A model generated the notes under the pieces. The model was given only the letters and a program-made list of their open reading frames with translations. It ran no database searches and was not told the origin of the DNA. A stretch of DNA of 64,000 nucleotides from a virus: IMG/VR virus record IMGVR_UViG_3300009159_000053, positions 22,893 to 86,892 of that record. One strand, given 5' to 3'. The position numbers were made by a program, and so were the translations under genes. Of the stretch, positions 5,341-59,630 are shown piece by piece. Every line of letters starts with the position of its first letter. Within the stretch, counting starts at the first letter, position 1.

Positions 5341-5663
5341 TAGTATTCCTTGTCTGTACTGAAAATAAATTCTCTTAGGGACATTTTCTTTTTGTATTTC
5401 TTTTGCCACTTTCTCATTAAAGCATTACGTTCTCTGTGGCTTAACCCACCCCAGATTCCGTGTGGCTCATCTCTTTTAACGGCATCCCACAAACATTGGG
5501 CACGTACTGGACAATGGTTTTTTCCTGTCTCACCAAAACAAAATGCTTTGGCCTGATCAGCAATGTCCTTGTACTGCTCTTTATCACGAGGAGGGTAGAA
5601 GATGTCGGTGTCTTGTCCCGAACATCTTGCTTCGTATCTCCAGGCATACTCTGGTTCATCCAT
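5340..5663 (-). CDS. whiB: WhiB-family Fe-S transcription factor
   Basis: W...ARC...D.DIFYP..AKAFC..CPVRAQCL..A...EPHGIWGGL...ER. Confidence 0.95.
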   Translation of the reverse strand: MDEPEYAWRYEARCSGQDTDIFYPPRDKEQYKDIADQAKAFCFGETGKNHCPVRAQCLWDAVKRDEPHGIWGGLSHRERNALMRKWQKKYKKKMSLREFIFSTDKEY

Positions 5664-30444: not shown

Positions 30445-31068
30445 TTAGAACGCTGCTGCGTCTGTAGATAAGTTTGCTGCCCAGTTAACATTAAAGCCCT
30501 CATGGACTAGAGTCATCTGTTCAACAAGTAGAGCATTATCACCTGCGTTTAGATCTGAGTATGCCACAGCAGTTGGCCAGCAGTTGTAAACTTCAAAACG
30601 CATTGCTACGTGGTCTGTTGCTGCTGGAGAGTTTTGAGCAGTCTCACCTGCTGATGGAACTGGATGAGATAAGACTTTAATCTCTAGATCGCAACGGAAG
30701 TTTTCATTCTTAGCACGGGTTGAACCCCCACCTTGAACTGTTGCGAATAGGTTACGCATCCATTCCCAGTTTTGATTTGTTCCAAGAATTACGCCACGTT
30801 GTAACGTAATAGGAGCAAACGTAGTCTGTCCAGGAATCTGGTGAACGGTAGTGTTGTATCCACCTTCACGGTAAGGAATGGAGTCGGTTGTAACCGCCAT
30901 TCCAGAGATTGATGTAAAACCAAAAGTAACTGCATTAGCAAGATTGTTAGTTGCAGTACTAGTTGGTGCACCACCAACACTTGTCAATGGTTTAAACGTA
31001 ACTAAAAATCTAAAGTTACGTAACGGATCGGTAATTAAATTTGACCGATTATTAATGATTGTAGGCAT
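30445..31068 (-). CDS. Tail tube protein (T4 gp19-like)
   Basis: DPLRNFRF, YREGG, ITLQRG, NCWP, L.HEG. Confidence 0.93.
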   Translation of the reverse strand: MPTIINNRSNLITDPLRNFRFLVTFKPLTSVGGAPTSTATNNLANAVTFGFTSISGMAVTTDSIPYREGGYNTTVHQIPGQTTFAPITLQRGVILGTNQNWEWMRNLFATVQGGGSTRAKNENFRCDLEIKVLSHPVPSAGETAQNSPAATDHVAMRFEVYNCWPTAVAYSDLNAGDNALLVEQMTLVHEGFNVNWAANLSTDAAAF

Positions 31069-31089: not shown

Positions 31090-32601
31090 TTAGTTCAGCG
31101 TCTTTTGGCTGAGATCGATGACGATGAACTCTGCTGGATATTGAAGAGCAACACCAACTTGAATGTGAACTTCACCATTTGCAATATCTGCATCTGAGTT
31201 GTTCTCTGCATCGCACTTTACAAAGTAAGCCTGTGCTGGAGTTGCTCCACGCAGACCACCCTGATTGCGATACTCATTTAAGAATGATCCAAGATTTGTG
31301 TTTATACGTGCCCACAGTCTTTCATCATTGTTTTCAAATAATGCAAACTCTGTTAAGTTCTTTAGGTTCTTGCGGATGTAAATTAAAGAACGACGCATGT
31401 TCACATACTTGTTTGCAGTTCCATCTTGCTTTAATGTACGAGCACCCATTACAGAAAGTCCAGCACCAGGGATTTGGCGAATTGGATTTACTGGGGATGT
31501 GCTTGCATTCATTGTGTCTAACTCTGCAGAGGTAAATGACTTTTCTACAGAAACGATTCCTAGTACTGGAGTTGAGATACCAGCAGGAGCCTTGAATACG
31601 CCACGGCTTGCATCTGTTGATAGGTAAAGACCAACAACTGCGCCAGTAGGTTCAATCTTACGAAGTGCTCCAGAACTACGTCCTAGTGGATCAGAAATGA
31701 ACACGTTAGGATAGTAGACAGCAGCATTGCTTGTATCTGCAAGAGAACCAGCAAAAGAAACAGCATTTGCAACTGTTAAATCTGGATCGGTTCCAATTAC
31801 AACAAAGCCGTTACTGTCTTCTGCCCAAGATGTTGCAGCATCAAAGACTGAAACTGTTCCAGATGCTAATGCATTTGCAACAGGTAGGAATAGTACTAGT
31901 GGACGGTCTAGTGAGGTAAAGCGCTCAAATACTGACGAACCACCAGCCTTGTAGTTGGTGTAGTCAGTAGCAGCGGTTGCTGTGCCATTTGAACCACTTG
32001 TTAGTGGGTAGGTTGCTAGAGTAATAGATGCACCAGCATAACCACCAGCAACAGATACTGAGATGTTTGGTGAAATAATGTTAATTACTGTTGGAGCATA
32101 ATCACTTGAAGCAGCGTCATTAAATACAATATTTGAATATTGTTCAAGAAGAATGTCATCAGAAATGTCGTTTGCTACACCTGACTCTTTGTAAAGAGTA
32201 AGTGTATAAGTGCTTGCAACGTCACCAGCAGTCAATACAACACGAAGGTTGTTACCATCTGTTCCAGCGTTCTTTGAAGTAACAGTCGCAGCAGTTGCAC
32301 CGCCACCATCTGTTAAGTTTCTAGAAGCAGCAACAGCGTTAGCCGCAAGCAGACGTTGAACATAAAGTTCACGTCCACCATTACTAAAGAATGAGCCAAC
32401 TTGGAAGGTGGCTGGATAGGTTGCGTTGTAACCTCCGAAGTACTTGGTAAATTCATACCAAGAGTTAACAAGGGTTACTGTTTCTGGGCCTTGTGCAAAA
32501 GGTGCAACAATTGCGCCAGCAGCATTTGCAGTAACTCCACTTGGGAGTACTGGTGGTAGTAGGCGTTCACTTATGTAAACACCTGGACGGCTATAAGCCA
32601 T
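31090..32601 (-). CDS. Contractile tail sheath protein
   Basis: PGVYI.E, AAVYYP, RGVFKAPAG, GARTL, FENND, AYFVKCD, PAEF. Confidence 0.95.
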   Translation of the reverse strand: MAYSRPGVYISERLLPPVLPSGVTANAAGAIVAPFAQGPETVTLVNSWYEFTKYFGGYNATYPATFQVGSFFSNGGRELYVQRLLAANAVAASRNLTDGGGATAATVTSKNAGTDGNNLRVVLTAGDVASTYTLTLYKESGVANDISDDILLEQYSNIVFNDAASSDYAPTVINIISPNISVSVAGGYAGASITLATYPLTSGSNGTATAATDYTNYKAGGSSVFERFTSLDRPLVLFLPVANALASGTVSVFDAATSWAEDSNGFVVIGTDPDLTVANAVSFAGSLADTSNAAVYYPNVFISDPLGRSSGALRKIEPTGAVVGLYLSTDASRGVFKAPAGISTPVLGIVSVEKSFTSAELDTMNASTSPVNPIRQIPGAGLSVMGARTLKQDGTANKYVNMRRSLIYIRKNLKNLTEFALFENNDERLWARINTNLGSFLNEYRNQGGLRGATPAQAYFVKCDAENNSDADIANGEVHIQVGVALQYPAEFIVIDLSQKTLN

Positions 32602-33532: not shown

Positions 33533-33849
33533 AGGTGACCATCCAGATGTCTCATAGCACGATTAACTAAAAACTTTTCAGCCTCAGTCTGTCTGTTATT
33601 AAATCTACGTATAGCAGCAGTTGGCTGTGTATCTGGGGTTCCGTATTCAAGATCTAGGATCTGAACTTTATGGGCTGGGTTTCCATGAACTGTAAAGGAT
33701 CCATTATCATGGCGAACATGCAGGTGCTTAACAATCTTTTCTGGCCAACCAGAAGCACGGGCCTCTGAACGCAAGTGAGCGCCCATGAAGCGTGTAGTTT
33801 CTACACTGGCTTTAGTTAGGGATTCTTTGGCTCTCTTTAGGTAGGTCAC
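33529..33849 (-). CDS. Probable neck/tail completion protein
   Basis: LEYGT motif; position. Confidence 0.5.
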   Translation of the reverse strand: MTYLKRAKESLTKASVETTRFMGAHLRSEARASGWPEKIVKHLHVRHDNGSFTVHGNPAHKVQILDLEYGTPDTQPTAAIRRFNNRQTEAEKFLVNRAMRHLDGHL

Positions 33850-34052
33850 TTCTTCTTCTTCGCTTTCGCCTTCGCTTTTGCGCCAACGTACACAGCACCA
33901 GCAAGATAGGCTGCGGTTGTACCTGCAAGAATCGATGCGATAGCGGGACGTTTTTCTTTAGGGCGGAATCCAAACACACCCCGAATAAACTCTTCACGTT
34001 CGCCTTGATTATTCATCTCAGCGACCTGTTCGTACCAAGGCTTATAAGCCAT
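33846..34052 (-). CDS. Small protein with a hydrophobic helix and Lys-rich tail
   Basis: Start moved to MAYKPW. Confidence 0.6.
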   Translation of the reverse strand: MAYKPWYEQVAEMNNQGEREEFIRGVFGFRPKEKRPAIASILAGTTAAYLAGAVYVGAKAKAKAKKKK

Positions 34053-34130
34053 AATAAATAACCCCTTTATCGCAACCTGTGGGACAGTAGTCAGGCACCG
34101 CAGCGGTGTTCTGATATAGCAATGATAAAT

Positions 34131-34154
34131 GAAAAAGCCACCCGTAGGTGGCTT
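34131..34154 (-). terminator. Intrinsic terminator closing the basic-peptide array
   Basis: AAGCCACC-TACG-GGTGGCTT followed by TTTC. Confidence 0.85.
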
Positions 34155-34159
34155 AGTCA

Positions 34160-34405
34160 TTACTTCTTTTTCTTTTCTCGCTTGTCTTCAGCCTTCTCGC
34201 CTTTTTTACCTTCTTTGGCTTCGTGCTTCTTAGATGCGGATTTAATCTTCTTTATATTAGCAACATCCATCTTGCGGTCATCCTCTTGGGACTTAGGCTT
34301 GCGATGCTTCTTATCCATCTTTTCAAACTTGGCCTTCTCTTCTTTATCCAATCCCTTTGTGGTCTTGGCATCCTGCTTCTTGTCAGAGGCCTTGGTGTAC
34401 TTCAT
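34160..34405 (-). CDS. Lys-rich charged small protein
   Basis: 81 aa; TAATG coupling. Confidence 0.8.
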   Translation of the reverse strand: MKYTKASDKKQDAKTTKGLDKEEKAKFEKMDKKHRKPKSQEDDRKMDVANIKKIKSASKKHEAKEGKKGEKAEDKREKKKK

Positions 34406-34524
34406 TAGACGATCTTCTTTTTCTTCTTCTTCTTTAGCGCTTTAAAATCTGCGCCAGTAATTTTATCAGCAGGCTTTGCAGCGTTAGCAATCTTCATCTG
34501 CTTAGGGCTTAGTGACTTCTTCAT
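34405..34524 (-). CDS. Lys-rich peptide, 39 aa (not in ORF track)
   Basis: MKKSLSPKQMKIANAAKPADKITGADFKALKKKKKKKIV; TAATG at both ends. Confidence 0.8.
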   Translation of the reverse strand: MKKSLSPKQMKIANAAKPADKITGADFKALKKKKKKKIV

Positions 34525-34589
34525 TACTTACCCTTCTGGCAAGTGGAACACTTGCACTTGCAGTTCTTCATTGTGCACTTAAGAGCCAT
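34524..34589 (-). CDS. Cys/Lys peptide, 21 aa (not in ORF track)
   Basis: MALKCTMKNCKCKCSTCQKGK; TAATG at both ends. Confidence 0.7.
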   Translation of the reverse strand: MALKCTMKNCKCKCSTCQKGK

Positions 34590-34708
34590 TATTTTTTGTC
34601 CTTCTTTTTCTTGTCTGTCTTCTTCTTAGCATACTTCTTATTAGCAGCGGCTAGAGTCTTCATGCCGTGCTTATCTTTTGGCTTCATACAGCCACAGGTG
34701 CTACACAT
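34589..34708 (-). CDS. Cys/Lys-rich peptide, 39 aa (not in ORF track)
   Basis: MCSTCGCMKPKDKHGMKTLAAANKKYAKKKTDKKKKDKK. Confidence 0.75.
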   Translation of the reverse strand: MCSTCGCMKPKDKHGMKTLAAANKKYAKKKTDKKKKDKK

Positions 34709-34710
34709 AT

Positions 34711-34887
34711 TTATTTACCTTTCGTCTTAGTCTTCTTAGCCTTTTTAGCAACTGCTGCATTATCGACTAAGTTTGGGTAGGGGCGTCCTGCTGCCTTGGC
34801 TCTCGCCTTAGCCGCAGACTTCTGAGATGGTGTTAACTTCTTATCTTTACCTGAAGGATCTTTTGTATTCCAAAATGCTTTTGCCAT
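34711..34887 (-). CDS. Lys/Ala-rich small protein
   Basis: MAKAFW...AKARAKAAGRPYPNLVDN; TAATG start. Confidence 0.8.
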   Translation of the reverse strand: MAKAFWNTKDPSGKDKKLTPSQKSAAKARAKAAGRPYPNLVDNAAVAKKAKKTKTKGK

Positions 34888-35147
34888 TAACAATCCCACT
34901 TTCTTAATGCTAGTGCCTTACGAGTTGGCTTGCCATTCTTTTCCATTGGTCCCTTGACCCCACCCATTCTTGCACAAAATGATTTACGACGTGCTGCTTT
35001 TTTAGGAGACTTCTTTGCCTCTTTTGCCGATACTGGAGGTTTTAATGTTCCGCCAGTTTCACGCTTATAGGATGCACGACCCTTTGCATTTAATCCACCC
35101 TCTGGATTCTTACCTTCCTTGCGTTGCCATGCTGCTGTCTTTGCCAT
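34887..35147 (-). CDS. Basic small phage protein (DUF6321-like)
   Basis: AWQRKEGKNPEGGLNAKGRASY...RRKSFCARM...LRKWDC. Confidence 0.8.
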   Translation of the reverse strand: MAKTAAWQRKEGKNPEGGLNAKGRASYKRETGGTLKPPVSAKEAKKSPKKAARRKSFCARMGGVKGPMEKNGKPTRKALALRKWDC

Positions 35148-35398
35148 TATCGTCCCTGACTTCTATGAGGATTGCTTTTGTGCCAACTCTTTACAGCCTT
35201 GACACCTTGCTTAACAGTCTTTGATCCGCCCATTTTTGTGAGATTGATTTTATCCCACTTACCTTGATTGGTATTGGTGTGCTCAACAACCACATCACCC
35301 TTTTTATTTTTAGAAACTTTATGAACTACCTTGGCTTTTTTCTTAGGAACACCAATAGCAAGAGTTACTGGCTTTTCTGGCTTCTTCTTATCAGCCAT
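35147..35398 (-). CDS. Lys-rich small protein
   Basis: 83 aa; TAATG coupling. Confidence 0.8.
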   Translation of the reverse strand: MADKKKPEKPVTLAIGVPKKKAKVVHKVSKNKKGDVVVEHTNTNQGKWDKINLTKMGGSKTVKQGVKAVKSWHKSNPHRSQGR

Positions 35399-35580
35399 TA
35401 AGCCACCGACTTCTTATGCTTATAACGAATTGGGGCTTTAGGTTTTCTCACTATGCCGCCCTTCTTTCGTTTTAATTTAGCACCGCCAGCCTCGTATTTA
35501 CTCTCAGTAACATTTGTTTGAATATTCTTCTGTGGCTGCTTACCAGCCCTTGCTCCAATGTTCCTGCGCCGTCTTGCCAT
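35398..35580 (-). CDS. Arg/Lys-rich small protein
   Basis: MARRRRNIGARAGK...; TAATG coupling. Confidence 0.75.
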   Translation of the reverse strand: MARRRRNIGARAGKQPQKNIQTNVTESKYEAGGAKLKRKKGGIVRKPKAPIRYKHKKSVA

Positions 35581-35762
35581 TACTTACTCTTCTTCTTCTT
35601 TGACATTCCCGCTTCGCTCATTGCAATAGCAACAGCCTGCTTCTTTGATTTAACAACTGGGCCTTTACCAGGACCCCTCTTACCTGAGTGCAACTTTCCT
35701 TCTTTGTACTCCTTCATAACCTTTTCAACTTTGCCTTTTGCTTTTTTAGTTGCCATCATCAT
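35580..35762 (-). CDS. Basic small protein (DUF6496-like)
   Basis: KVEKVMKEYKEGKLHSG...VKSKKQAVAIAMSEAG. Confidence 0.8.
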   Translation of the reverse strand: MMMATKKAKGKVEKVMKEYKEGKLHSGKRGPGKGPVVKSKKQAVAIAMSEAGMSKKKKSK

Positions 35763-35843
35763 CCTCTTCTACTTGGTCATCTAATTCTACCGCATCAAAC
35801 TCAAAGAGAGATGGGTCTAATAACTCTTCAAAATTTCCCAAGG

Positions 35844-36377
35844 CTAGTTTGCGTATGCTTGGAACTGAGGATCATTTACTAACTCCTCTGAGTTGACTAG
35901 GTTGCAGTCTATAGTTACTACTGAATAACGTTCGGCGTATCTTCCACGAGGTAAGACTCTGGTAGGAACAAATACTGCATCTTGGAATACGACACGATCC
36001 TTAATGTGTTGGTTTGGATCGGTGACCATTGCAGGGAGTAATCTATTTATATCTGCTACAGAAACAACGAGGCGCAGAGTATCTACTACGTAGAATCCTC
36101 GTTCATTCATTATGTTTGTACCACGCATTAATTGCGCCAAAATTACGGGCAAATCAAAGGGGTCATTCCATCTGCGGCCCTTAGTAGGATCTTGATTTGA
36201 TACATCGTAAACTGGATCTACGTAATTGGCATAGTCAGCAGCAAGTGCTGCATCATCCCAACTCCACCAATCAACAATTGTTCCTACAGGATCACGGAGT
36301 TCATCGACCATACCCTCATCCATAGAGAGAGTCTCAAAACCTATCTTAAATCGTCCTTGGACTTTTGAACCACGCAT
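35844..36377 (-). CDS. Probable head-closure/neck protein
   Basis: 177-aa ORF; assigned from position and DPVYD/DRVVF pattern. Confidence 0.5.
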   Translation of the reverse strand: MRGSKVQGRFKIGFETLSMDEGMVDELRDPVGTIVDWWSWDDAALAADYANYVDPVYDVSNQDPTKGRRWNDPFDLPVILAQLMRGTNIMNERGFYVVDTLRLVVSVADINRLLPAMVTDPNQHIKDRVVFQDAVFVPTRVLPRGRYAERYSVVTIDCNLVNSEELVNDPQFQAYAN

Positions 36378-53429: not shown

Positions 53430-54557
53430 TTAGTTGGTGTAAACCTTAACAATTGCTTGATCGGTAATTACGCCAAGACCCCAAATTGCATACCAAGCAA
53501 GAGCGTGCTCACGACCGAAGTCAAGAACGCCACCATCACGAAGTTCAACTGGAAGAGAGATTGCGTGACCAAATGCGTTGTCACCAATCATGATTGATTC
53601 GTAAACTTCAGCACCGTTACCAGTTGCTGATGTTAGGTAACCTTTTTCTGCTGTGTAATTTGCAGACTCTGGGTTTCCACCACTTCCTGGAGCAGTGTTA
53701 GCCTTAACAGGAACTTCAATTTGAGATGCTGGAAGACCAACAGAAGTTGAAGTTGTGTATGCAGCGTTAACTGATAGTTTTTTAACCTGTGTTGTTTCGA
53801 TGAATACTACGTCGTATAGACGACCGATTTCACCTAGCATGAAGTTACCTGGAGCAGCGTACTTAGTTACTTCGATGAACTCTGGGTTCGAACGAATATC
53901 ACGTGACTGCTTTGGGTGTACGAACTGTACGTATGTCTCGCCTAAACGAGGGATGTTCTTACCAGCAAGGGTAAGAGCAGCATCCTTTACAGCACCAGTT
54001 GATAACTTGTAGTTACCATCAAGGTCTGACATTTGTGTTGCTACTGTACCTTCGTTGTACCAGTCATTAACACCTTGTACTGATGAACGGTCATAACCGA
54101 ACACTGCAGAAGTTGCTGCAGATAAAGTGTTACGTGCTTGTACATCTAGGTATTGCGCCATTTGGCGTCCTAGAAGACGAGATGCTGAAGCCATTACATC
54201 ATCGAATGATGCATTAAGTAGCAATTCAGAAACAGCAACGGCATAACCGTGTTCTGCTACTGTGATTGCAATTTGCTCTGCAGTAAGTGCATTCGTAGTC
54301 ATACGAACACCTTCTGTTAGAGGAGTTGGATCTACTGCGAAGTTCTTGTAACGAAGGAAGTTCACACGAAGACCAGGTGCTACACCTAGTTCAGTCTTCT
54401 TAACTGCGAATTGTTCGAAACGAAGAATTGGCATTGCCTGGAACAAAATTTCTTTCGACCAGATTGTTTGAATTGCTTGGCTCAGGCTTGTATTTGAGCC
54501 TGAGTATGCGGTTGGGGCTCCTGCGAGTTGCCCTGTACCTGTAATTGCACTTGCCAT
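53430..54557 (-). CDS. Major capsid protein (N4-gp56-like)
   Basis: LTEGV, EHG.AV.VSE, VHP.Q..DIR, GEIGR...V.FIET, DFGR...AWY. Confidence 0.92.
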   Translation of the reverse strand: MASAITGTGQLAGAPTAYSGSNTSLSQAIQTIWSKEILFQAMPILRFEQFAVKKTELGVAPGLRVNFLRYKNFAVDPTPLTEGVRMTTNALTAEQIAITVAEHGYAVAVSELLLNASFDDVMASASRLLGRQMAQYLDVQARNTLSAATSAVFGYDRSSVQGVNDWYNEGTVATQMSDLDGNYKLSTGAVKDAALTLAGKNIPRLGETYVQFVHPKQSRDIRSNPEFIEVTKYAAPGNFMLGEIGRLYDVVFIETTQVKKLSVNAAYTTSTSVGLPASQIEVPVKANTAPGSGGNPESANYTAEKGYLTSATGNGAEVYESIMIGDNAFGHAISLPVELRDGGVLDFGREHALAWYAIWGLGVITDQAIVKVYTN

Positions 54558-55489: not shown

Positions 55490-57226
55490 TTAATCCCTGT
55501 CTACTGTTCTTCTTTGTGGAATTTTTGTTCCATAAGCGTCAGTGACAAGTTTGTTTCTTATCTCAGCCTCTGCTTCAACTTCCATGCCTTTTGTTTCTTG
55601 ACTGGCTGGATTTAAAGGATTATCAGCATCTTGAGGGCCCTGCATTCCGTCACCCATCATGTCTCCATCACCTATAACGGTAGGCTGCATTGGAATAGCA
55701 CTATTACCATCGGGTCCTGGCATCATGCCAGTCATGTCCATAATCTGTTTTTGAATTTGAATTTTTATAAGTTGTAGAGCACCATCAGCCTCAGCATCGG
55801 CCATGAGTTCTTTACGAATTTCTTGCAACTTCTCTTCAGGGAATTCTTCACCAAGTTGACGTAATGCACCCTCTTTAGACTCAAGTCCCATACCCAATTT
55901 AGTTTGAAGTTCATTAAGAACAATTAGTTTATCAAGAGGTAGAGGTTGTGGAAACTGTGCATAGTTAATGTAAGTAACGGGATCATTAGGATCTAGTTGT
56001 GGATACTGACCTTCTTTGATTGGTCCATCTTCATCTGGATTATAAATAAATGTCTGTGGTTCTTTAACTGCAAGAGTCTTCATTACTAATTCGTTTATCT
56101 TTTCTAAACCTTTACCATACTGTGCAACTTTTTGGGAGTAACGATTCATCAATGGTTGGTATTGAATAGAAAGAGCAACGCCAGAAGTATTTGAAATTGG
56201 TTGAACTTGTCCCAGTGCGGTTTCTGGAATGTTCATAAGTTCATGCATTGAGCGCTTTAATAGTTCTAGGTACTTTAAGGCTCCGTCTATACCTTGTGCA
56301 CCACCTTCTAAGTTGAAGACTTGAGCATCTTTTGGAAGACCGCCCCAAACCTTCTTAGCGCCTTTTTCTAAGTTAGAGGCTTTAGCACCCACGATTACCG
56401 TTACTGGCGATGCGTGGTAGTTAATGATGTCTGCAACATCAGTGCTAATTTCGTTATATGCACGGTTTATAGTGATGATGTCGTGTGCGTCCGAGAGACC
56501 CCACGGCGATCCTGAAACAGGAACATTAGGAATATGAACTACAGGAATTACGCCCAAAGGATTTGGACGTGAATCAATTAGTTCATCATTTACGTACTCT
56601 TCAATAATGTCATCAGTAAGAATTTCAGTATAAGTAAATACTTGACGAGTACCTTCTAAAGATGTACCCCAGAAACGATATTTTTGTTTAAATCTTAAAA
56701 GTCTATTTCTATCATGTGGATGAAATTCTGGAAAACAGAAAGAGGAGTTCATAGGAAGAATACGAACACGACCAGGATGTAATAATCCTGCAGAGTCTGT
56801 CCAAGGTTCTTCGTATGCTACTTTAACAAAACAATCTCCTGTAATTCCGCCTTGCTGTCCCATTTCAAGTAGGACACGCATCTTGTCATTATCTACCGTC
56901 CAAACCCGTTCCAACCTGTCAGGTACAATCGCTTCAGTCGCTTTCGGAGACCTGTAATGCACCCCACGACCAAAAGTAAAACGGGAAAGATAATCATTAA
57001 ACGCCCGATAGTAGTTAACAGCAATTTGCATTTCGCCTTGCTCACGACGGTACCCCCAATGGTGACCTAGATACATTGCCCAATTTAATGAATAACGGTT
57101 TAGGCGAGGACCATGAACTTCAAATTCTTCGTCAGCAAGTTCTACTAATCCAAGTGGAGAAATAGAAATAGTTAAATCAGATGATGCCGCTCTATATGAC
57201 GGCGGACTAAAGTCCAAAAATGACAT
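55490..57226 (-). CDS. Portal protein (SPP1 gp6-like)
   Basis: NPLGVIPVVHIPN, WGLSD, NTSGVAL; position. Confidence 0.9.
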   Translation of the reverse strand: MSFLDFSPPSYRAASSDLTISISPLGLVELADEEFEVHGPRLNRYSLNWAMYLGHHWGYRREQGEMQIAVNYYRAFNDYLSRFTFGRGVHYRSPKATEAIVPDRLERVWTVDNDKMRVLLEMGQQGGITGDCFVKVAYEEPWTDSAGLLHPGRVRILPMNSSFCFPEFHPHDRNRLLRFKQKYRFWGTSLEGTRQVFTYTEILTDDIIEEYVNDELIDSRPNPLGVIPVVHIPNVPVSGSPWGLSDAHDIITINRAYNEISTDVADIINYHASPVTVIVGAKASNLEKGAKKVWGGLPKDAQVFNLEGGAQGIDGALKYLELLKRSMHELMNIPETALGQVQPISNTSGVALSIQYQPLMNRYSQKVAQYGKGLEKINELVMKTLAVKEPQTFIYNPDEDGPIKEGQYPQLDPNDPVTYINYAQFPQPLPLDKLIVLNELQTKLGMGLESKEGALRQLGEEFPEEKLQEIRKELMADAEADGALQLIKIQIQKQIMDMTGMMPGPDGNSAIPMQPTVIGDGDMMGDGMQGPQDADNPLNPASQETKGMEVEAEAEIRNKLVTDAYGTKIPQRRTVDRD

Positions 57227-57489
57227 TACTTCTTGCCTTTATCTTTTTCTTTTTTAGAATTCTTTGTGTCTTTGTTACTTTCACGTTCTTTATTTTTTGC
57301 GTTCTCTTGTTTTTTCTTAGCCATATTTGCCCGACGACTTGCTTCAGTTGTTTCAACATACTGTCCGCCTGCTTGTTGATACTTTTTACTTACCCATGCC
57401 GATGCTCCAGGATTTGGATAGTTAGAATATTTTGCTCGTGCTTGAGCAACAAACATCGCATACAGTTTTGGGTTAGCAGGTTTACGCAT
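57226..57489 (-). CDS. Small Lys-rich protein coupled to the portal gene
   Basis: PANPKLY..ARAKY..YP...SAW..KKY...GG.Y; TAATG overlap. Confidence 0.75.
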   Translation of the reverse strand: MRKPANPKLYAMFVAQARAKYSNYPNPGASAWVSKKYQQAGGQYVETTEASRRANMAKKKQENAKNKERESNKDTKNSKKEKDKGKK

Positions 57490-58043: not shown

Positions 58044-59630
58044 CTAGAAAAAAGGATTGCTAGAGGCTACTACTTCTGGCATTACTAAGTCTTGGGTTAA
58101 GGAACAAGCAATGGATAAAGAATCTACAAAATCGTCATGTGCGTAGGATTCATCGGGGGCTGCTACAAGAAAATTTGGACCCTTATATTGTACTTCTGCA
58201 TCAACCATCTGTTGATAAAACCGTTTCCATGTACGTAGGCGCCTAGTTTTTGCATGAGCAGGCCACGCAATCATCTTACGTTGAATTAATGCTTGTAGGT
58301 GTTTCCATCGTTTTGATTGTTCAGATGGGCTAGACGTTAAAGACATAACCTCTGCTCTTGGTAATAAAAGTTTTAAACGTTGGGCAACAGCATCTCCTAC
58401 ACCGTTAGCGTCTACACCAACAGCAAGTACATCATAGTTACTTAAAAAGTTTACTATTTGATAATACTGCTCTTCCCAATCATCTCCTTGCATTTCTAAC
58501 CAGTTAAGAATTCGATGATCAAAATAACCAAACTCATCAGGACGATCCCAATCAACCCAGACAACAGTAACAACTGTACTGTCAGTTTTACGAGCAGGGT
58601 CAATACCAACAACAACTGGGGTCTTGTGCCATACCTTGACAAGTTCTTGAGACGTGTCGCCTAAGTCATCCATAATTGAAGAGGTAACAAACATTCCTCT
58701 TTCTAAGAGCCACTTACAGTTATAAGACATTTGAAACTCATCGGACTCTTCTCCAATACGCAACATCTCTTTACGAATAAACTTTTCGTAGTTTGGATTA
58801 AATTTTGCTACATCTTTCCAATCCCATTGGAAATGATTTTGCCTGTTACCTTTTGTAGTTTGACGTCTGCGATTTAATTGAATAGATCTATAAAAATTAT
58901 TTTTAGTTGTAGTGGGAGTTCCTGTCTTAACCATTGTTCCTGCGTAGTATGCAAGCATAGGAGAAATAGACTTAGAAACTACAAAGTCATCTGCTTCTTG
59001 ACACTCATCCACAACAATCAAATGAAAAGACTTAGACTCAATCTTTGCTCGTGGGTTTGCAGTCATCATGGTTATTGTTGAACCTGATTTCTTTAATTTT
59101 AGTTGTCTAGTTACACCGCCAACACGAACTGCAGAATCGTCAATTTCGACATCGCCCATAATATCTACGGCTCTTTCAGAGGTTAAACGAGTTACAGCAC
59201 GACCAAACAATGTTTCGGCCTGAGATTCAGTTGGGGCAAATAACCCAACCCAAACTCCATCTTTAAACTTACCTAATAAATCAGGATATAACTTAGCAAG
59301 ACGAGGTAAGAGAATCATCAGTGTGGCTACAGTGTCAGCGACGGTTTCAGACTTACCAGACTGACGTGAAGCAAGAGCAGTTACTTCTTCACCGTCGTTG
59401 ATAATTACTGATTCCATAATACGACGGGCTAGAGGTTTCTGATAAGCATGCAAATCATGCCCGACAAGAACCTTTAAAAAGTCCATCATCTTATCTATTA
59501 ATGTATCTACAAATTTTTGCGATAACTCATCGAGTAAATCTTCTACAGGATCTTCTACAGGTTTTTCTTCAGCCTGATAAAACTCAGGACTAATCTCTTC
59601 AAACTTATCTTTGTCGTATTTAGATTCCAT
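58044..59630 (-). CDS. terL: Terminase large subunit
   Basis: RQSGKS, VVDECQ, GTP, VGIDPA..DST, HDDFVDS. Confidence 0.95.
   Translation of the reverse strand: MESKYDKDKFEEISPEFYQAEEKPVEDPVEDLLDELSQKFVDTLIDKMMDFLKVLVGHDLHAYQKPLARRIMESVIINDGEEVTALASRQSGKSETVADTVATLMILLPRLAKLYPDLLGKFKDGVWVGLFAPTESQAETLFGRAVTRLTSERAVDIMGDVEIDDSAVRVGGVTRQLKLKKSGSTITMMTANPRAKIESKSFHLIVVDECQEADDFVVSKSISPMLAYYAGTMVKTGTPTTTKNNFYRSIQLNRRRQTTKGNRQNHFQWDWKDVAKFNPNYEKFIRKEMLRIGEESDEFQMSYNCKWLLERGMFVTSSIMDDLGDTSQELVKVWHKTPVVVGIDPARKTDSTVVTVVWVDWDRPDEFGYFDHRILNWLEMQGDDWEEQYYQIVNFLSNYDVLAVGVDANGVGDAVAQRLKLLLPRAEVMSLTSSPSEQSKRWKHLQALIQRKMIAWPAHAKTRRLRTWKRFYQQMVDAEVQYKGPNFLVAAPDESYAHDDFVDSLSIACSLTQDLVMPEVVASSNPFF

What the first reader, a model, noticed from the sequence alone, without database searches (positions are those of the whole stretch)
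34131..35762. Array of nine translationally coupled Lys/Arg-rich micropeptide genes: candidate phage protamine-like DNA-condensing kit
Seen: nine consecutive unrelated 21-86 aa ORFs, all strongly basic. Seven of the eight junctions are exact TAATG stop/start overlaps, and a C(UACG)G terminator closes the array. Three members are missing from the ORF track, including MALKCTMKNCKCKCSTCQKGK and MCSTCGCM..., which could bind metal or cross-link. By eye, Lys codons are mostly AAG as in the MCP, unlike the AAA-rich replication genes, which suggests high expression. The array sits among virion genes. Inference: an expandable cassette of polycations that are packaged to neutralise DNA, or ejected to bind host nucleic acids or ribosomes.
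Basis: partly seen in the sequence, partly recalled or inferred. Interest (0 to 1): 0.78.

Follow-up and report, generated by a model that had tools for sequence, protein, structure and literature searches.

The report
Lysine-rich micro-gene cassette, lake phage
A lake phage that probably infects actinobacteria carries, inside its particle-building operon, a row of nine real genes for tiny, very positively charged proteins led by one tiny acidic gene; they are most likely packed inside the phage head with the DNA, but nobody has tested this.

Summary
Nine minus-strand ORFs of 21-86 aa (window 34160-35762) are all strongly basic (net +6 to +19, +128 together). Seven of the eight junctions are TAATG, and a hairpin terminator closes the row. 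All nine are real genes: in 52 distinct versions of the locus from related lake phage contigs each frame is conserved, with pN/pS 0.17-0.45 (neighbouring gene 0.24). Content varies at a fixed site, with 3-12 basic genes drawn from at least 23 recurring families.

g1 is DUF6496 and g4 is DUF6321. In other aquatic phages g1-, g3-, g4- and g5-like modules are fused to each other. Some are fused to a head maturation protease or to ART-PolyVal proteins. They also lie between scaffold and capsid genes or next to terminase genes. One DUF6321 protein, S-CREM2 ORF137, was found in purified virions.

Best reading (about 0.5): head-internal polycationic cargo that travels with the DNA. DNA condensation is inferred from charge alone. 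The AAG codon bias is real but confined to Lys. This scan has reported very similar cassettes on other genomes.

The parts
35746..35841 (-). Acidic leader micro-ORF (31 aa, net -13, TTG start in this window). It starts 2 nt after the stop of the upstream 177-aa gene and overlaps g1 by 17 nt.
Evidence: Listed. It is the same peptide as the ATG-started copies in relatives and shares the motif FE-x-x-LDPSLFE. An acidic frame is present in 50 of 52 locus versions, 26 with an ATG start and 24 open without one. pN/pS is 0.39.
35580..35762 (-). g1, 60 aa, net +15, DUF6496 family
   Evidence: Pfam PF20106 at 43.3 bits (cut-off 24), E 4.9e-11. phrog_2423 at 8.9e-5. pN/pS 0.24 over 43 distinct DNA versions. 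A g1-like module is fused to DUF6321 plus a head maturation protease in P0033.
35398..35580 (-). g2, 60 aa, net +18, Arg/Lys-rich, no known family
   Evidence: No Pfam, PHROG or PDB match. Conserved in 28 distinct DNA versions with pN/pS 0.29.
35147..35398 (-). g3, 83 aa, net +17. It has a conserved core with three invariant His and is a module also found inside large proteins.
   Evidence: Alignment A1 shows 19 invariant columns. pN/pS 0.29. 215 representative clusters match at E <= 0.001; of the best 150, 80 are over 400 aa. 27 of 43 longer homologues also carry DUF6321.
34887..35147 (-). g4, 86 aa, net +19, DUF6321 family
   Evidence: Pfam PF19846 at 93.8 bits (cut-off 28.5). phrog_4689 at 5e-27. 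tblastn matches in 423 phage records. 7405 longer proteins match at E <= 1e-5. pN/pS 0.29.
34711..34887 (-). g5, 58 aa, net +14, phrog_34011
   Evidence: phrog_34011 at E 3e-22. Present in only some relatives, where a 'CW' module often takes its place. Fused to DUF6321 in 9 of the 122 long proteins examined. pN/pS 0.23.
34589..34708 (-). g6, 39 aa, net +12, invariant N-terminal M-C-x-x-C-G-C followed by a Lys tail
   Evidence: 30 distinct DNA versions, pN/pS 0.18, variable sites by codon position 15/14/39. Alignment. No Pfam or PHROG match.
34524..34589 (-). g7, 21 aa, net +6, five Cys (C-x6-C-x-C-x-C-x2-C)
   Evidence: 15 distinct DNA versions, pN/pS 0.17, variable sites 6/7/16. It matches the C-terminal half of the 28-41 aa Cys peptides of relatives.
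34405..34524 (-). g8, 39 aa, net +12
   Evidence: 39 distinct DNA versions, pN/pS 0.45. No family match.
34160..34405 (-). g9, 81 aa, net +15, Lys/Glu/Asp-rich, last gene of the row
   Evidence: 34 distinct DNA versions, pN/pS 0.35. Absent from many close relatives. No family match.
34125..34154 (-). Intrinsic terminator: an 8-bp stem, UACG loop and U-rich tail
   Evidence: -20.7 kcal/mol, z -5.2, 0 of 200 shuffles as stable. A perfect-stem hairpin with a T-rich tail sits at the same place in 38 of 46 relatives that have the downstream gene, and the stem sequences differ between them.

Best explanation
The unit is one late transcription unit inside the virion operon: an acidic leader, nine translationally coupled genes and a terminator. 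It makes a set of small, mostly Lys-rich polycationic proteins that are loaded into the phage head, sit with the packaged DNA as protein counter-ions or cargo, and leave with the DNA at infection.

Shown:
- The genes are real and under purifying selection.
- The set is exchangeable at a fixed site.
- The modules recur across aquatic phages, both free and fused.

Inferred:
- Late, fairly high and stoichiometric expression. This rests on operon position, one-base stop/start overlaps and Lys codon use.
- Head location. This rests on fusions and gene neighbourhoods in other phages and on one virion proteome.

Inferred from charge alone: partial neutralisation of DNA. One copy of the set carries +128. 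About 136 copies of each protein would offset 10% of the 173,784 phosphates of the 86.9-kb genome and would add roughly 8 MDa of protein; this is my own arithmetic.

How the proteins get into the procapsid is unknown. Co-assembly with acidic scaffold or with the acidic leader is a guess.
For: 1. Real genes. All nine frames are conserved in 52 distinct locus versions, with pN/pS 0.17-0.45 and excess change at the third codon position; the flanking 177-aa gene gives 0.24.

2. Operon. The junctions are TAATG, there is a terminator, and the unit lies between fibre/neck and sheath genes. The terminator position is conserved in 38 of 46 relatives.

3. Head link by gene fusion.
- P0033 (509 aa) combines a g1-like module (phrog_2423, 3e-21), DUF6321 and a head maturation protease (phrog_3778, E 5.9e-115; DUF2213).
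- 3 of 10 long DUF6321 proteins scanned carry ART-PolyVal. Iyer et al. 2017 (PMC5512222, passages read) predict that this class is packaged and injected.
- 17 of 122 long proteins examined hold two or more cassette families.
- 27 of 43 longer g3 homologues carry DUF6321.

4. Head link by position.
- In pelagiphage HTVC022P, small basic ORFs including DUF6321 lie between the scaffolding and capsid genes. S-RIP1 is similar.
- In pelagiphage Hodr, a basic array lies just upstream of the large gene that looks like the terminase.
- Syn9 gp114 and S-CREM2 ORF137 lie between the small and large terminase genes.

5. Virion proteome. S-CREM2 ORF137 carries DUF6321 at residues 415-488. It is listed in the CsCl-purified virion proteome with 4 unique peptides and 4.1% coverage (PMC10665884, Table 3 text).

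6. Expression. The AAG share of Lys codons is 0.70, against 0.35 genome-wide and 0.77 in capsid + sheath + tube. Contigs from 4 of 4 laid lake RNA libraries (of 6 RNA runs listed) cover parts of the array, and two hold pieces identical to the window. These are contigs only: the strand is unknown and DNA carry-over is not excluded.
Against: - No protein of this window has been seen in any virion.
- The only proteome hit concerns a 490-aa fusion protein, with low coverage. The authors of that paper themselves warn that abundant non-structural proteins can co-purify.
- PHROG's 'head maturation protease' and Pfam's ART-PolyVal are annotations, not tests.
- The fusion evidence covers g1, g3, g4 and g5, plus the relatives' CW and f13 modules. 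It does not cover g2, g6, g7, g8 or g9, which had 0 hits in the long proteins.
- No shared N-terminal capsid-targeting peptide is visible.
- No head protease was identified in this genome. PF09979 was not found, and the control for that search did not ring either. The 258-aa gene between portal and capsid has no match.
- g3 and g4 look like folded domains with specific conserved residues, which suits specific targets as well as bulk charge.
- The nearest cultured relatives by sheath, the Streptomyces myophages, lack the cassette, so it is not needed for this virion architecture.
- The codon signal is restricted to Lys and is stronger next to other Lys (0.70 against 0.59 over the 52 related versions). 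This fits poly-A avoidance.
Confidence: 0.5

Rival explanations
1. Injected effectors with specific host targets. Each module is packaged but acts on a particular host molecule after ejection, such as a defence system, RNA polymerase, ribosome or RNA. The positive charge is incidental or serves nucleic-acid targeting rather than DNA condensation in the head.
For: DUF6321 is a terminal module of ART-PolyVal proteins, which Iyer et al. 2017 read as injected conflict proteins. g3 and g4 have conserved cores with invariant His, Cys and Trp. The rapid presence/absence turnover at a fixed site resembles arms-race loci. g3 occurs in proteins of 1000-2400 aa (43 of the best 150).
Against: No enzymatic or known binding domain is present in any of the nine. 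Uniformly extreme charge across at least 23 unrelated families suggests that charge itself is selected. The 21-39 aa Lys-tail peptides have little room for specific recognition.
Confidence: 0.2
2. Late intracellular helpers that are not packaged. These would be small nucleic-acid-binding or assembly-assisting proteins that act in the infected cell, for example by compacting concatemeric phage or host DNA, chaperoning RNA, or assisting scaffold, capsid or neck assembly. They would be left behind at lysis.
For: The late operon position and coupling show co-expression with virion genes, not incorporation. The authors of the S-CREM2 proteome caution about co-purifying abundant proteins. A Streptomyces relative builds a similar tail without the cassette.
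Against: Fusion of g1- and g4-like modules to a head maturation protease places them inside procapsids in those phages. The recurrent position between scaffold and capsid genes or beside terminase genes in unrelated phages also argues against this reading.
Confidence: 0.15
3. A hotspot of unrelated accessory ('moron') micro-genes. On this reading the site between neck genes simply tolerates insertions, and the genes have no shared function. The similar composition would reflect what short, harmless, easily translated ORFs look like, and the Lys tails would double as purine-rich ribosome-binding sites for the next gene.
For: Content varies greatly. HNH and endonuclease VII genes and extra fibre genes are inserted at the same site in some relatives. 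The C-terminal Lys runs lie just upstream of the next start codon.
Against: The order of families is collinear across versions, and each is under purifying selection. The same families co-occur and are fused in distant phages. A scan of the whole 86.9-kb genome for small Lys-rich basic ORFs found them clustered here; the one other of convincing length is an 87-aa ORF next to the portal gene. AAG bias is also present away from the tails (76/37).
Confidence: 0.1
4. Not genes: chance ORFs in an A/G-rich spacer or regulatory region.
For: The ORFs are very short and low in complexity, and six of the nine have no family match.
Against: Frames are kept open and substitutions concentrate at third positions in 9-43 distinct DNA versions per family. 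Two reach Pfam gathering scores.
Confidence: 0.02

Closest known systems
Phage T4 internal proteins IPI, IPII and IPIII, and the polymorphic ip locus of T-even phages (recalled knowledge; bubblegram paper PMC7697877 seen as abstract only)
   Same: Both are small basic proteins made late, and the T4 proteins are carried in the head with the DNA and ejected with it. Both are encoded at a locus whose content differs between close relatives.
   Different: T4 internal proteins share an N-terminal capsid-targeting sequence that the prohead protease removes. No shared N-terminal peptide is seen here. The proteins here are smaller (21-86 aa) and more numerous, they are chained by TAATG overlaps and led by an acidic micro-ORF. 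There is no sequence similarity, and packaging here is inferred rather than shown.
Multi-module DUF6321 proteins of T4-like cyanophages: Syn9 gp114 (called T4-GC119, a 'hypothetical protein', in PMC3037559, passages read) and S-CREM2 ORF137
   Same: g4 is the same Pfam domain. The relatives' CW module directly precedes DUF6321 in gp114. ORF137 was detected in purified virions.
   Different: Those are single chains of 443-490 aa lying between the terminase genes. Here the modules are free-standing micro-genes between neck and tail genes. Table S8 of PMC3037559, which would say whether T4-GC119 was detected in virions, is a supplement I could not open.
Polyvalent proteins of phages and conjugative elements (Iyer, Burroughs, Anand, de Souza, Aravind 2017, PMC5512222; abstract and passages read)
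   Same: DUF6321 occurs at the end of ART-PolyVal-bearing proteins of 399-1214 aa. g3 occurs inside proteins of up to 2409 aa. That class is predicted to be packaged and injected.
   Different: The defining feature, several disparate domains in one polypeptide, is absent here because each gene is one module. No enzymatic domain is present in the cassette.
Protamine-like core proteins of eukaryotic dsDNA viruses (adenovirus VII/mu and baculovirus P6.9, recalled; ascovirus P64 paper PMC6163548 seen as abstract)
   Same: Both are small polycations proposed or shown to neutralise encapsidated DNA.
   Different: Those are Arg-rich and are single or few proteins. These are Lys-rich (146 K against 24 R), belong to many families, and show no homology. 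Condensation is untested.

Membership tests
Pfam DUF6321 (PF19846), for g4 | Score above the curated gathering cut-off over the full domain | tested here: met
   93.8 bits against a cut-off of 28.5; profile positions 1-72 of 72.
Pfam DUF6496 (PF20106), for g1 | Score above the curated gathering cut-off | tested here: met
   43.3 bits against a cut-off of 24; profile positions 4-49 of 58.
T4-type internal proteins | Shared N-terminal capsid-targeting sequence removed by the prohead protease | tested here: not met
   The nine N-termini (MMMATKK, MARRRR, MADKKK, MAKTAAW, MAKAFW, MCSTCGC, MALKC, MKKSL, MKYTK) share no common peptide of about 10 aa. No prohead protease was identified in this genome.
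T4-type internal proteins | Physical presence inside the mature head and ejection with the DNA | not testable with these tools
   Only indirect evidence is available: fusions and one proteome of another phage.
T4-type internal proteins | Locus content polymorphic between close relatives | tested here: met
   3-12 basic genes per version, and at least 23 families seen in two or more of the 52 versions.
Polyvalent proteins (Iyer et al. 2017) | Two or more biochemically disparate domains in one polypeptide | tested here: not met
   Each ORF is a single module of 21-86 aa. Only homologues elsewhere are multi-domain.
Protamines and viral protamine-like core proteins | Arg-dominated polycation that condenses DNA | tested here: not met
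   Composition is 146 Lys against 24 Arg and there is no homology. DNA condensation is not testable here.
Metallothionein or zinc-knuckle peptides, for g6 and g7 | Match to a known Cys-rich family, and metal binding | tested here: inconclusive
   No Pfam or PHROG match at E <= 1. The Cys positions (M-C-x-x-C-G-C and C-K-C-x-C-x-x-C) are conserved across relatives. Metal binding is not testable here.
Ribosomal protein uL24 / KOW, for g3 | Significant sequence match to the family | tested here: not met
   The single sequence gives E 0.094 against PDB uL24 chains. The family profile is weaker, E 0.8. No Pfam match.

The most novel reading that the evidence does not exclude
Aquatic phages carry a modular, exchangeable kit of genome-encoded polycations, either free micro-genes or beads on larger cargo proteins. 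The kit, with an acidic escort peptide, would replace or supplement polyamines and Mg2+ as counter-ions for packaged DNA in phages of nutrient-poor waters. It would be loaded into the procapsid by charge pairing with acidic scaffold or leader proteins and handed over to the DNA as this enters. The kit's size and make-up would then tune head pressure, particle stability in low-salt water and the first moments after ejection. This would be a mode of DNA charge management not described for tailed phages.
Probability: 0.15. Interest if true: 0.85.

Novelty: new variant of a known kind. Interest (0 to 1): 0.6.

Why it matters
If these proteins are head cargo, tailed phages of lakes and oceans routinely carry dozens to hundreds of copies of small polycations. 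Standard tryptic virion proteomics would miss them, because Lys-rich peptides are cut into fragments too small to identify. Gene callers often skip them as well; three of the nine here are 39 aa or shorter.

That would bear on three things: how DNA charge and pressure are handled in capsids, what enters the host cell together with the DNA, and the function of several very widespread domains of unknown function. DUF6321 alone is found in 423 phage records and in over 7,400 longer proteins.

The fixed-site, mix-and-match architecture also offers a natural experiment on which modules are interchangeable.

Tried and rejected
- Ribosomal protein mimicry (g3 against uL24/KOW). E was 0.094 with the single sequence and weakened to 0.8 with the family profile. 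Rejected.
- PDB sequence searches. g1, g2 and g4 gave nothing meaningful. Three giant g3-bearing proteins (P0140, P0133, P0192) gave no match at E <= 0.001.
- ESM Atlas search with g3. Only viral 'hypothetical protein' clusters at scores 0.80-0.82, below the level of a lead.
- Pfam on the relatives' extra families (Cys peptide, CW, f13, f14, f15, f21, acidic leader). No match at E <= 0.1. My recollection that f13 and f14 belong to DUF5872 was not borne out by this Pfam copy. PHROGs place them in phrog_17747 and phrog_14910, both of unknown function.
- Structure prediction of g3 from alignment A1.
- DUF2213 (PF09979) in this genome. No match, but the control genomes did not ring either, so this says nothing.
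- Synteny with the cultured relative. Streptomyces phage GiJojo (sheath 46% identical over 61% of the query) has no such cassette before its tail terminator and sheath genes.
- RNA evidence. Only Logan contigs were available, with no strand, ends or levels. Parts of the stretch without cover in X19, X21 and X22 mean nothing. Depth differences in X20 are not interpretable.
- Literature. No paper in the held library contains DUF6321, DUF6496, PF19846 or PF20106. A generic search on small basic, internal or DNA-condensing phage proteins returned 177 papers; the 15 listed did not describe such cassettes. Searches on Syn9 gp114 and on freshwater actinophages gave no mention either. The S-SCSM1 paper text did not name the relevant ORF.
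- No tRNA genes in the window. The sigma-70-like promoter scan was not above shuffles (3 found, 4.7 expected).
- Complex prediction (acidic leader with basic peptides) was not run, because I do not claim that they bind.
Full report
**What is there**

The finding lies on the minus strand. Between the stop of a 177-aa gene (35844-36377) and a hairpin terminator (34125-34154) there are nine consecutive ORFs of 60, 60, 83, 86, 58, 39, 21, 39 and 81 aa. All are strongly basic, with pI 9.4-11.8 and net charge +6 to +19. Together they hold 146 Lys, 24 Arg, 20 Asp and 22 Glu in 527 residues, a net charge of +128.

Seven of the eight junctions are a one-base TAATG stop/start overlap, and g5 to g6 has a 2-nt gap. 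On the rest of the same strand only 9 of 71 long-ORF junctions are of this kind (p = 3e-5). The terminator has an 8-bp stem and a UACG loop and folds at -20.7 kcal/mol (z = -5.2).

A scan of the whole 86,892-bp genome for small Lys-rich basic ORFs found them clustered here. The only other one of convincing length is an 87-aa ORF abutting the portal gene.

A 31-aa very acidic ORF (35746-35841, net -13) has a TTG start in this window. It begins 2 nt after the upstream gene and overlaps g1.

**Context**

The genome is an IMG/VR virus record with 40% G+C, estimated 87% complete.

Gene order on the minus strand is:
- terminase (58044-59630), portal (55490-57226) and major capsid protein (53430-54557);
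- collagen-like and Gly-rich fibre genes;
- the 177-aa gene, then the cassette;
- a 68-aa membrane-type protein, a 106-aa gene and a 299-aa gene;
- tail sheath (31090-32601), tube (30445-31068) and the baseplate.

Two WhiB genes score above the Pfam cut-off. The best cultured matches of the sheath are Streptomyces myophages. These point to an actinobacterial host. Near-identical DNA occurs in freshwater and lake metagenomes.

**Are the micro-ORFs genes?**

I fetched 150 loci from IMG/VR using the two flanking genes as queries. Ninety loci plus the window hold both flanks, and they collapse to 52 distinct sequences. I chained ATG-started ORFs and clustered them.

Every one of the nine families recurs in 9-43 distinct DNA versions. 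Change concentrates at third codon positions, and pN/pS is 0.17-0.45. The tiny g6 and g7 score 0.18 and 0.17, and the flanking 177-aa gene scores 0.24. One caveat applies: families were defined by protein similarity, so decayed copies would not be counted.

These are genes.

**A variable cassette at a fixed site**

The versions are collinear. The order is: acidic leader, g1, (f15/f23), g2, g3, g4, (g5 or a 'CW' module), (f13 f14), a Cys peptide, g6, g7, g8, g9, terminator.

Members come and go:
- There are 3-12 small basic genes per version (median 8).
- Summed net charge runs from +36 to +158.
- At least 23 basic families are seen in two or more versions, plus 15 singletons.
- 231 of 420 junctions are the one-base overlap.
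- The acidic frame is present in 50 of 52 versions. It carries a conserved FEPELDP-x-LFE-type motif.
- A terminator-like hairpin lies at the same place in 38 of 46 versions by a strict rule, and the stems differ.
- HNH and endonuclease VII genes, or an extra fibre gene, are inserted in a few versions.

The Cys peptides are themselves modular. g6 keeps an invariant M-C-x-x-C-G-C head. g7 equals the C-terminal C-K-C-x-C-x-x-C half of the relatives' 28-41 aa peptides.

**What the families are**

- g1 is DUF6496 and g4 is DUF6321; both score above Pfam's cut-offs.
- g5 is phrog_34011.
- The other six have no Pfam, PHROG or PDB match.
- g3 has a conserved core with 19 invariant columns, including three His. 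It is not plain low complexity.

No paper in the held library mentions either DUF name.

**Links to the phage head**

1. DUF6321 is found by tblastn in 423 phage records, mostly cyanophages and pelagiphages.
   - In pelagiphage HTVC022P three small basic ORFs, including DUF6321, lie between the scaffolding and capsid genes.
   - In cyanophage S-RIP1 DUF6321 and a homologue of one of those ORFs follow the 'head assembly' gene.
   - In pelagiphage Hodr a basic array lies just upstream of a 501-aa gene that looks like the large terminase. The array holds DUF6321 and a 132-aa fusion of f13 and f14.
   - In Syn9 and S-CREM2 a 443-490-aa protein ending in DUF6321 lies between the terminase subunit genes. 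In Syn9 gp114 the CW module directly precedes DUF6321.

2. 7405 proteins of 152-2000 aa match g4 at E <= 1e-5.
   - Of ten that I scanned, three carry ART-PolyVal and one carries DUF2213.
   - That one, P0033, reads as a g1-like module, then DUF6321, then a head maturation protease (phrog_3778, E 5.9e-115). The PHROG profile itself spans the DUF6321 part.
   - 17 of 122 long proteins hold two or more cassette families: g1, g5, f13 or CW together with g4.

3. g3 matches 215 representative clusters. Of the best 150, 80 are longer than 400 aa and 43 longer than 1000 aa. 27 of 43 longer homologues also carry DUF6321.

4. S-CREM2 ORF137 is listed in the proteome of CsCl-purified virions with 4 unique peptides and 4.1% coverage (PMC10665884, Table 3 text). 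The authors caution that abundant proteins may co-purify.

5. Iyer et al. 2017 (PMC5512222, abstract and passages) predict that phage polyvalent proteins are packaged and injected.

Together these make a head-internal location the best reading for g1, g3, g4 and g5. For g2 and g6-g9 it rests only on their being chained in the same unit.

**Expression**

The Lys codon claim holds. AAG/AAA is 102/44 in the array, 23/7 in capsid + sheath + tube, 45/178 in replication-side genes and 494/901 in all long ORFs.

Other codon pairs do not follow the capsid pattern. AAC is 4/14 against 47/29, and TTC is 0/4 against 23/22. Across the 52 related versions the AAG share is 0.70 for Lys next to Lys and 0.59 for isolated Lys. 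The longest A run in the array is 6. Part of the bias is therefore probably avoidance of poly-A tracts, and 'high expression' is only partly supported.

Contigs from four of four laid lake metatranscriptome libraries cover parts of the array. Two hold pieces identical to the window. These are contigs without strand, and DNA carry-over is not excluded.

**Mechanism and rivals**

Best reading (0.5): the cassette encodes late, coupled, head-internal polycations that accompany the DNA. Charge neutralisation is inferred from composition only. Offsetting 10% of the genome's phosphates would take about 136 copies of each protein (my arithmetic).

Rivals:
- Injected effectors with specific targets (0.2). 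This fits the conserved cores, the ART-PolyVal link and the arms-race-like turnover.
- Non-packaged late helpers (0.15).
- A hotspot of unrelated accessory genes (0.1).
- Not genes (0.02, refuted).

A role for the acidic leader as escort or chaperone is a guess and was not tested.

**Against the reading**

- No protein of this window has been seen in a particle.
- No shared capsid-targeting peptide is visible.
- No head protease was identified here.
- The Streptomyces relatives lack the cassette.

**Known relatives and novelty**

The closest known kinds are the T4 internal proteins with their polymorphic locus, the multi-module DUF6321 proteins of cyanophages, and polyvalent proteins. Membership in each fails on a defining feature: no targeting sequence, and single-module genes. 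The cassette is best called a new variant of a known kind, namely free-standing, chained micro-gene versions of head cargo modules.

This scan has already reported very similar cassettes on other genomes. I took leads from those notes (S-CREM2 ORF137 and polyvalent proteins) and checked them myself.

Noticed in passing
window 57226-57489 (-): A tenth small basic ORF lies outside the cassette: 87 aa, net +15. It sits between the terminase-side genes and the portal gene, and its end abuts the portal start. It contains an S-A-W-V-S-K-K-Y-x-x-A-G-G-x-Y stretch that resembles the f13 module of the relatives' cassettes. No PHROG match.
   Followed up: partly
window 34053-34124 (-), between the terminator and the 68-aa gene: The leader of the downstream gene holds a block (CAGAACACCGCTGCGGTGCCTGA) that is nearly the same in the relatives printed. 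One relative (L066) changes both ends of the small hairpin in a compensatory way. This may be a conserved RNA element or promoter region.
   Followed up: no
L144:5039-5422, L138 (same family), L037:4748-5221: Homing-type endonuclease genes are inserted inside or at the end of the cassette in three relatives. HNH scores PF01844/PF13392; endonuclease VII scores PF02945, E 3e-19. The site therefore also takes up mobile genes.
   Followed up: partly
L116:4143-4436: In one relative the g3 gene carries an N-terminal extension that resembles the start of g1 (K-G-K-V-E-x-V-M-K-x-Y-K-x-G-K-L). This is a natural g1-g3 fusion within the same lineage.
   Followed up: no
L138, L141, L144, L069, L071 (between the 177-aa gene and the acidic leader): Some relatives have an extra fibre-like gene of 125-400 aa inserted just upstream of the acidic leader; several are collagen-like.
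   Followed up: no
window 33846-34052 (-): The gene after the terminator encodes a 68-aa protein with one hydrophobic helix and an A-K-A-K-A-K-A-K-K-K-K tail. It is conserved in 46 of 52 versions (pN/pS 0.37). The longer 104-aa ORF listed from 34160 runs through the terminator and is probably not the real start.
   Followed up: partly
genome G000:C1:28310-28534 (-) = window 5418-5642, and G000:C1:9680-9874 (+), outside the window: The phage carries two WhiB genes, both above the Pfam cut-off.
   Followed up: partly
L155:4219-4365 (-) and L154:4192-4368 (+): A 48-58-aa basic peptide (M-A-K-[RK]-G-L-Y-A-N-I-H-A-K-R ...) is shared by a T7-like pelagiphage and a T7-like cyanophage. It lies next to DUF6321 in both. 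This is another travelling module that is not present in this window.
   Followed up: no
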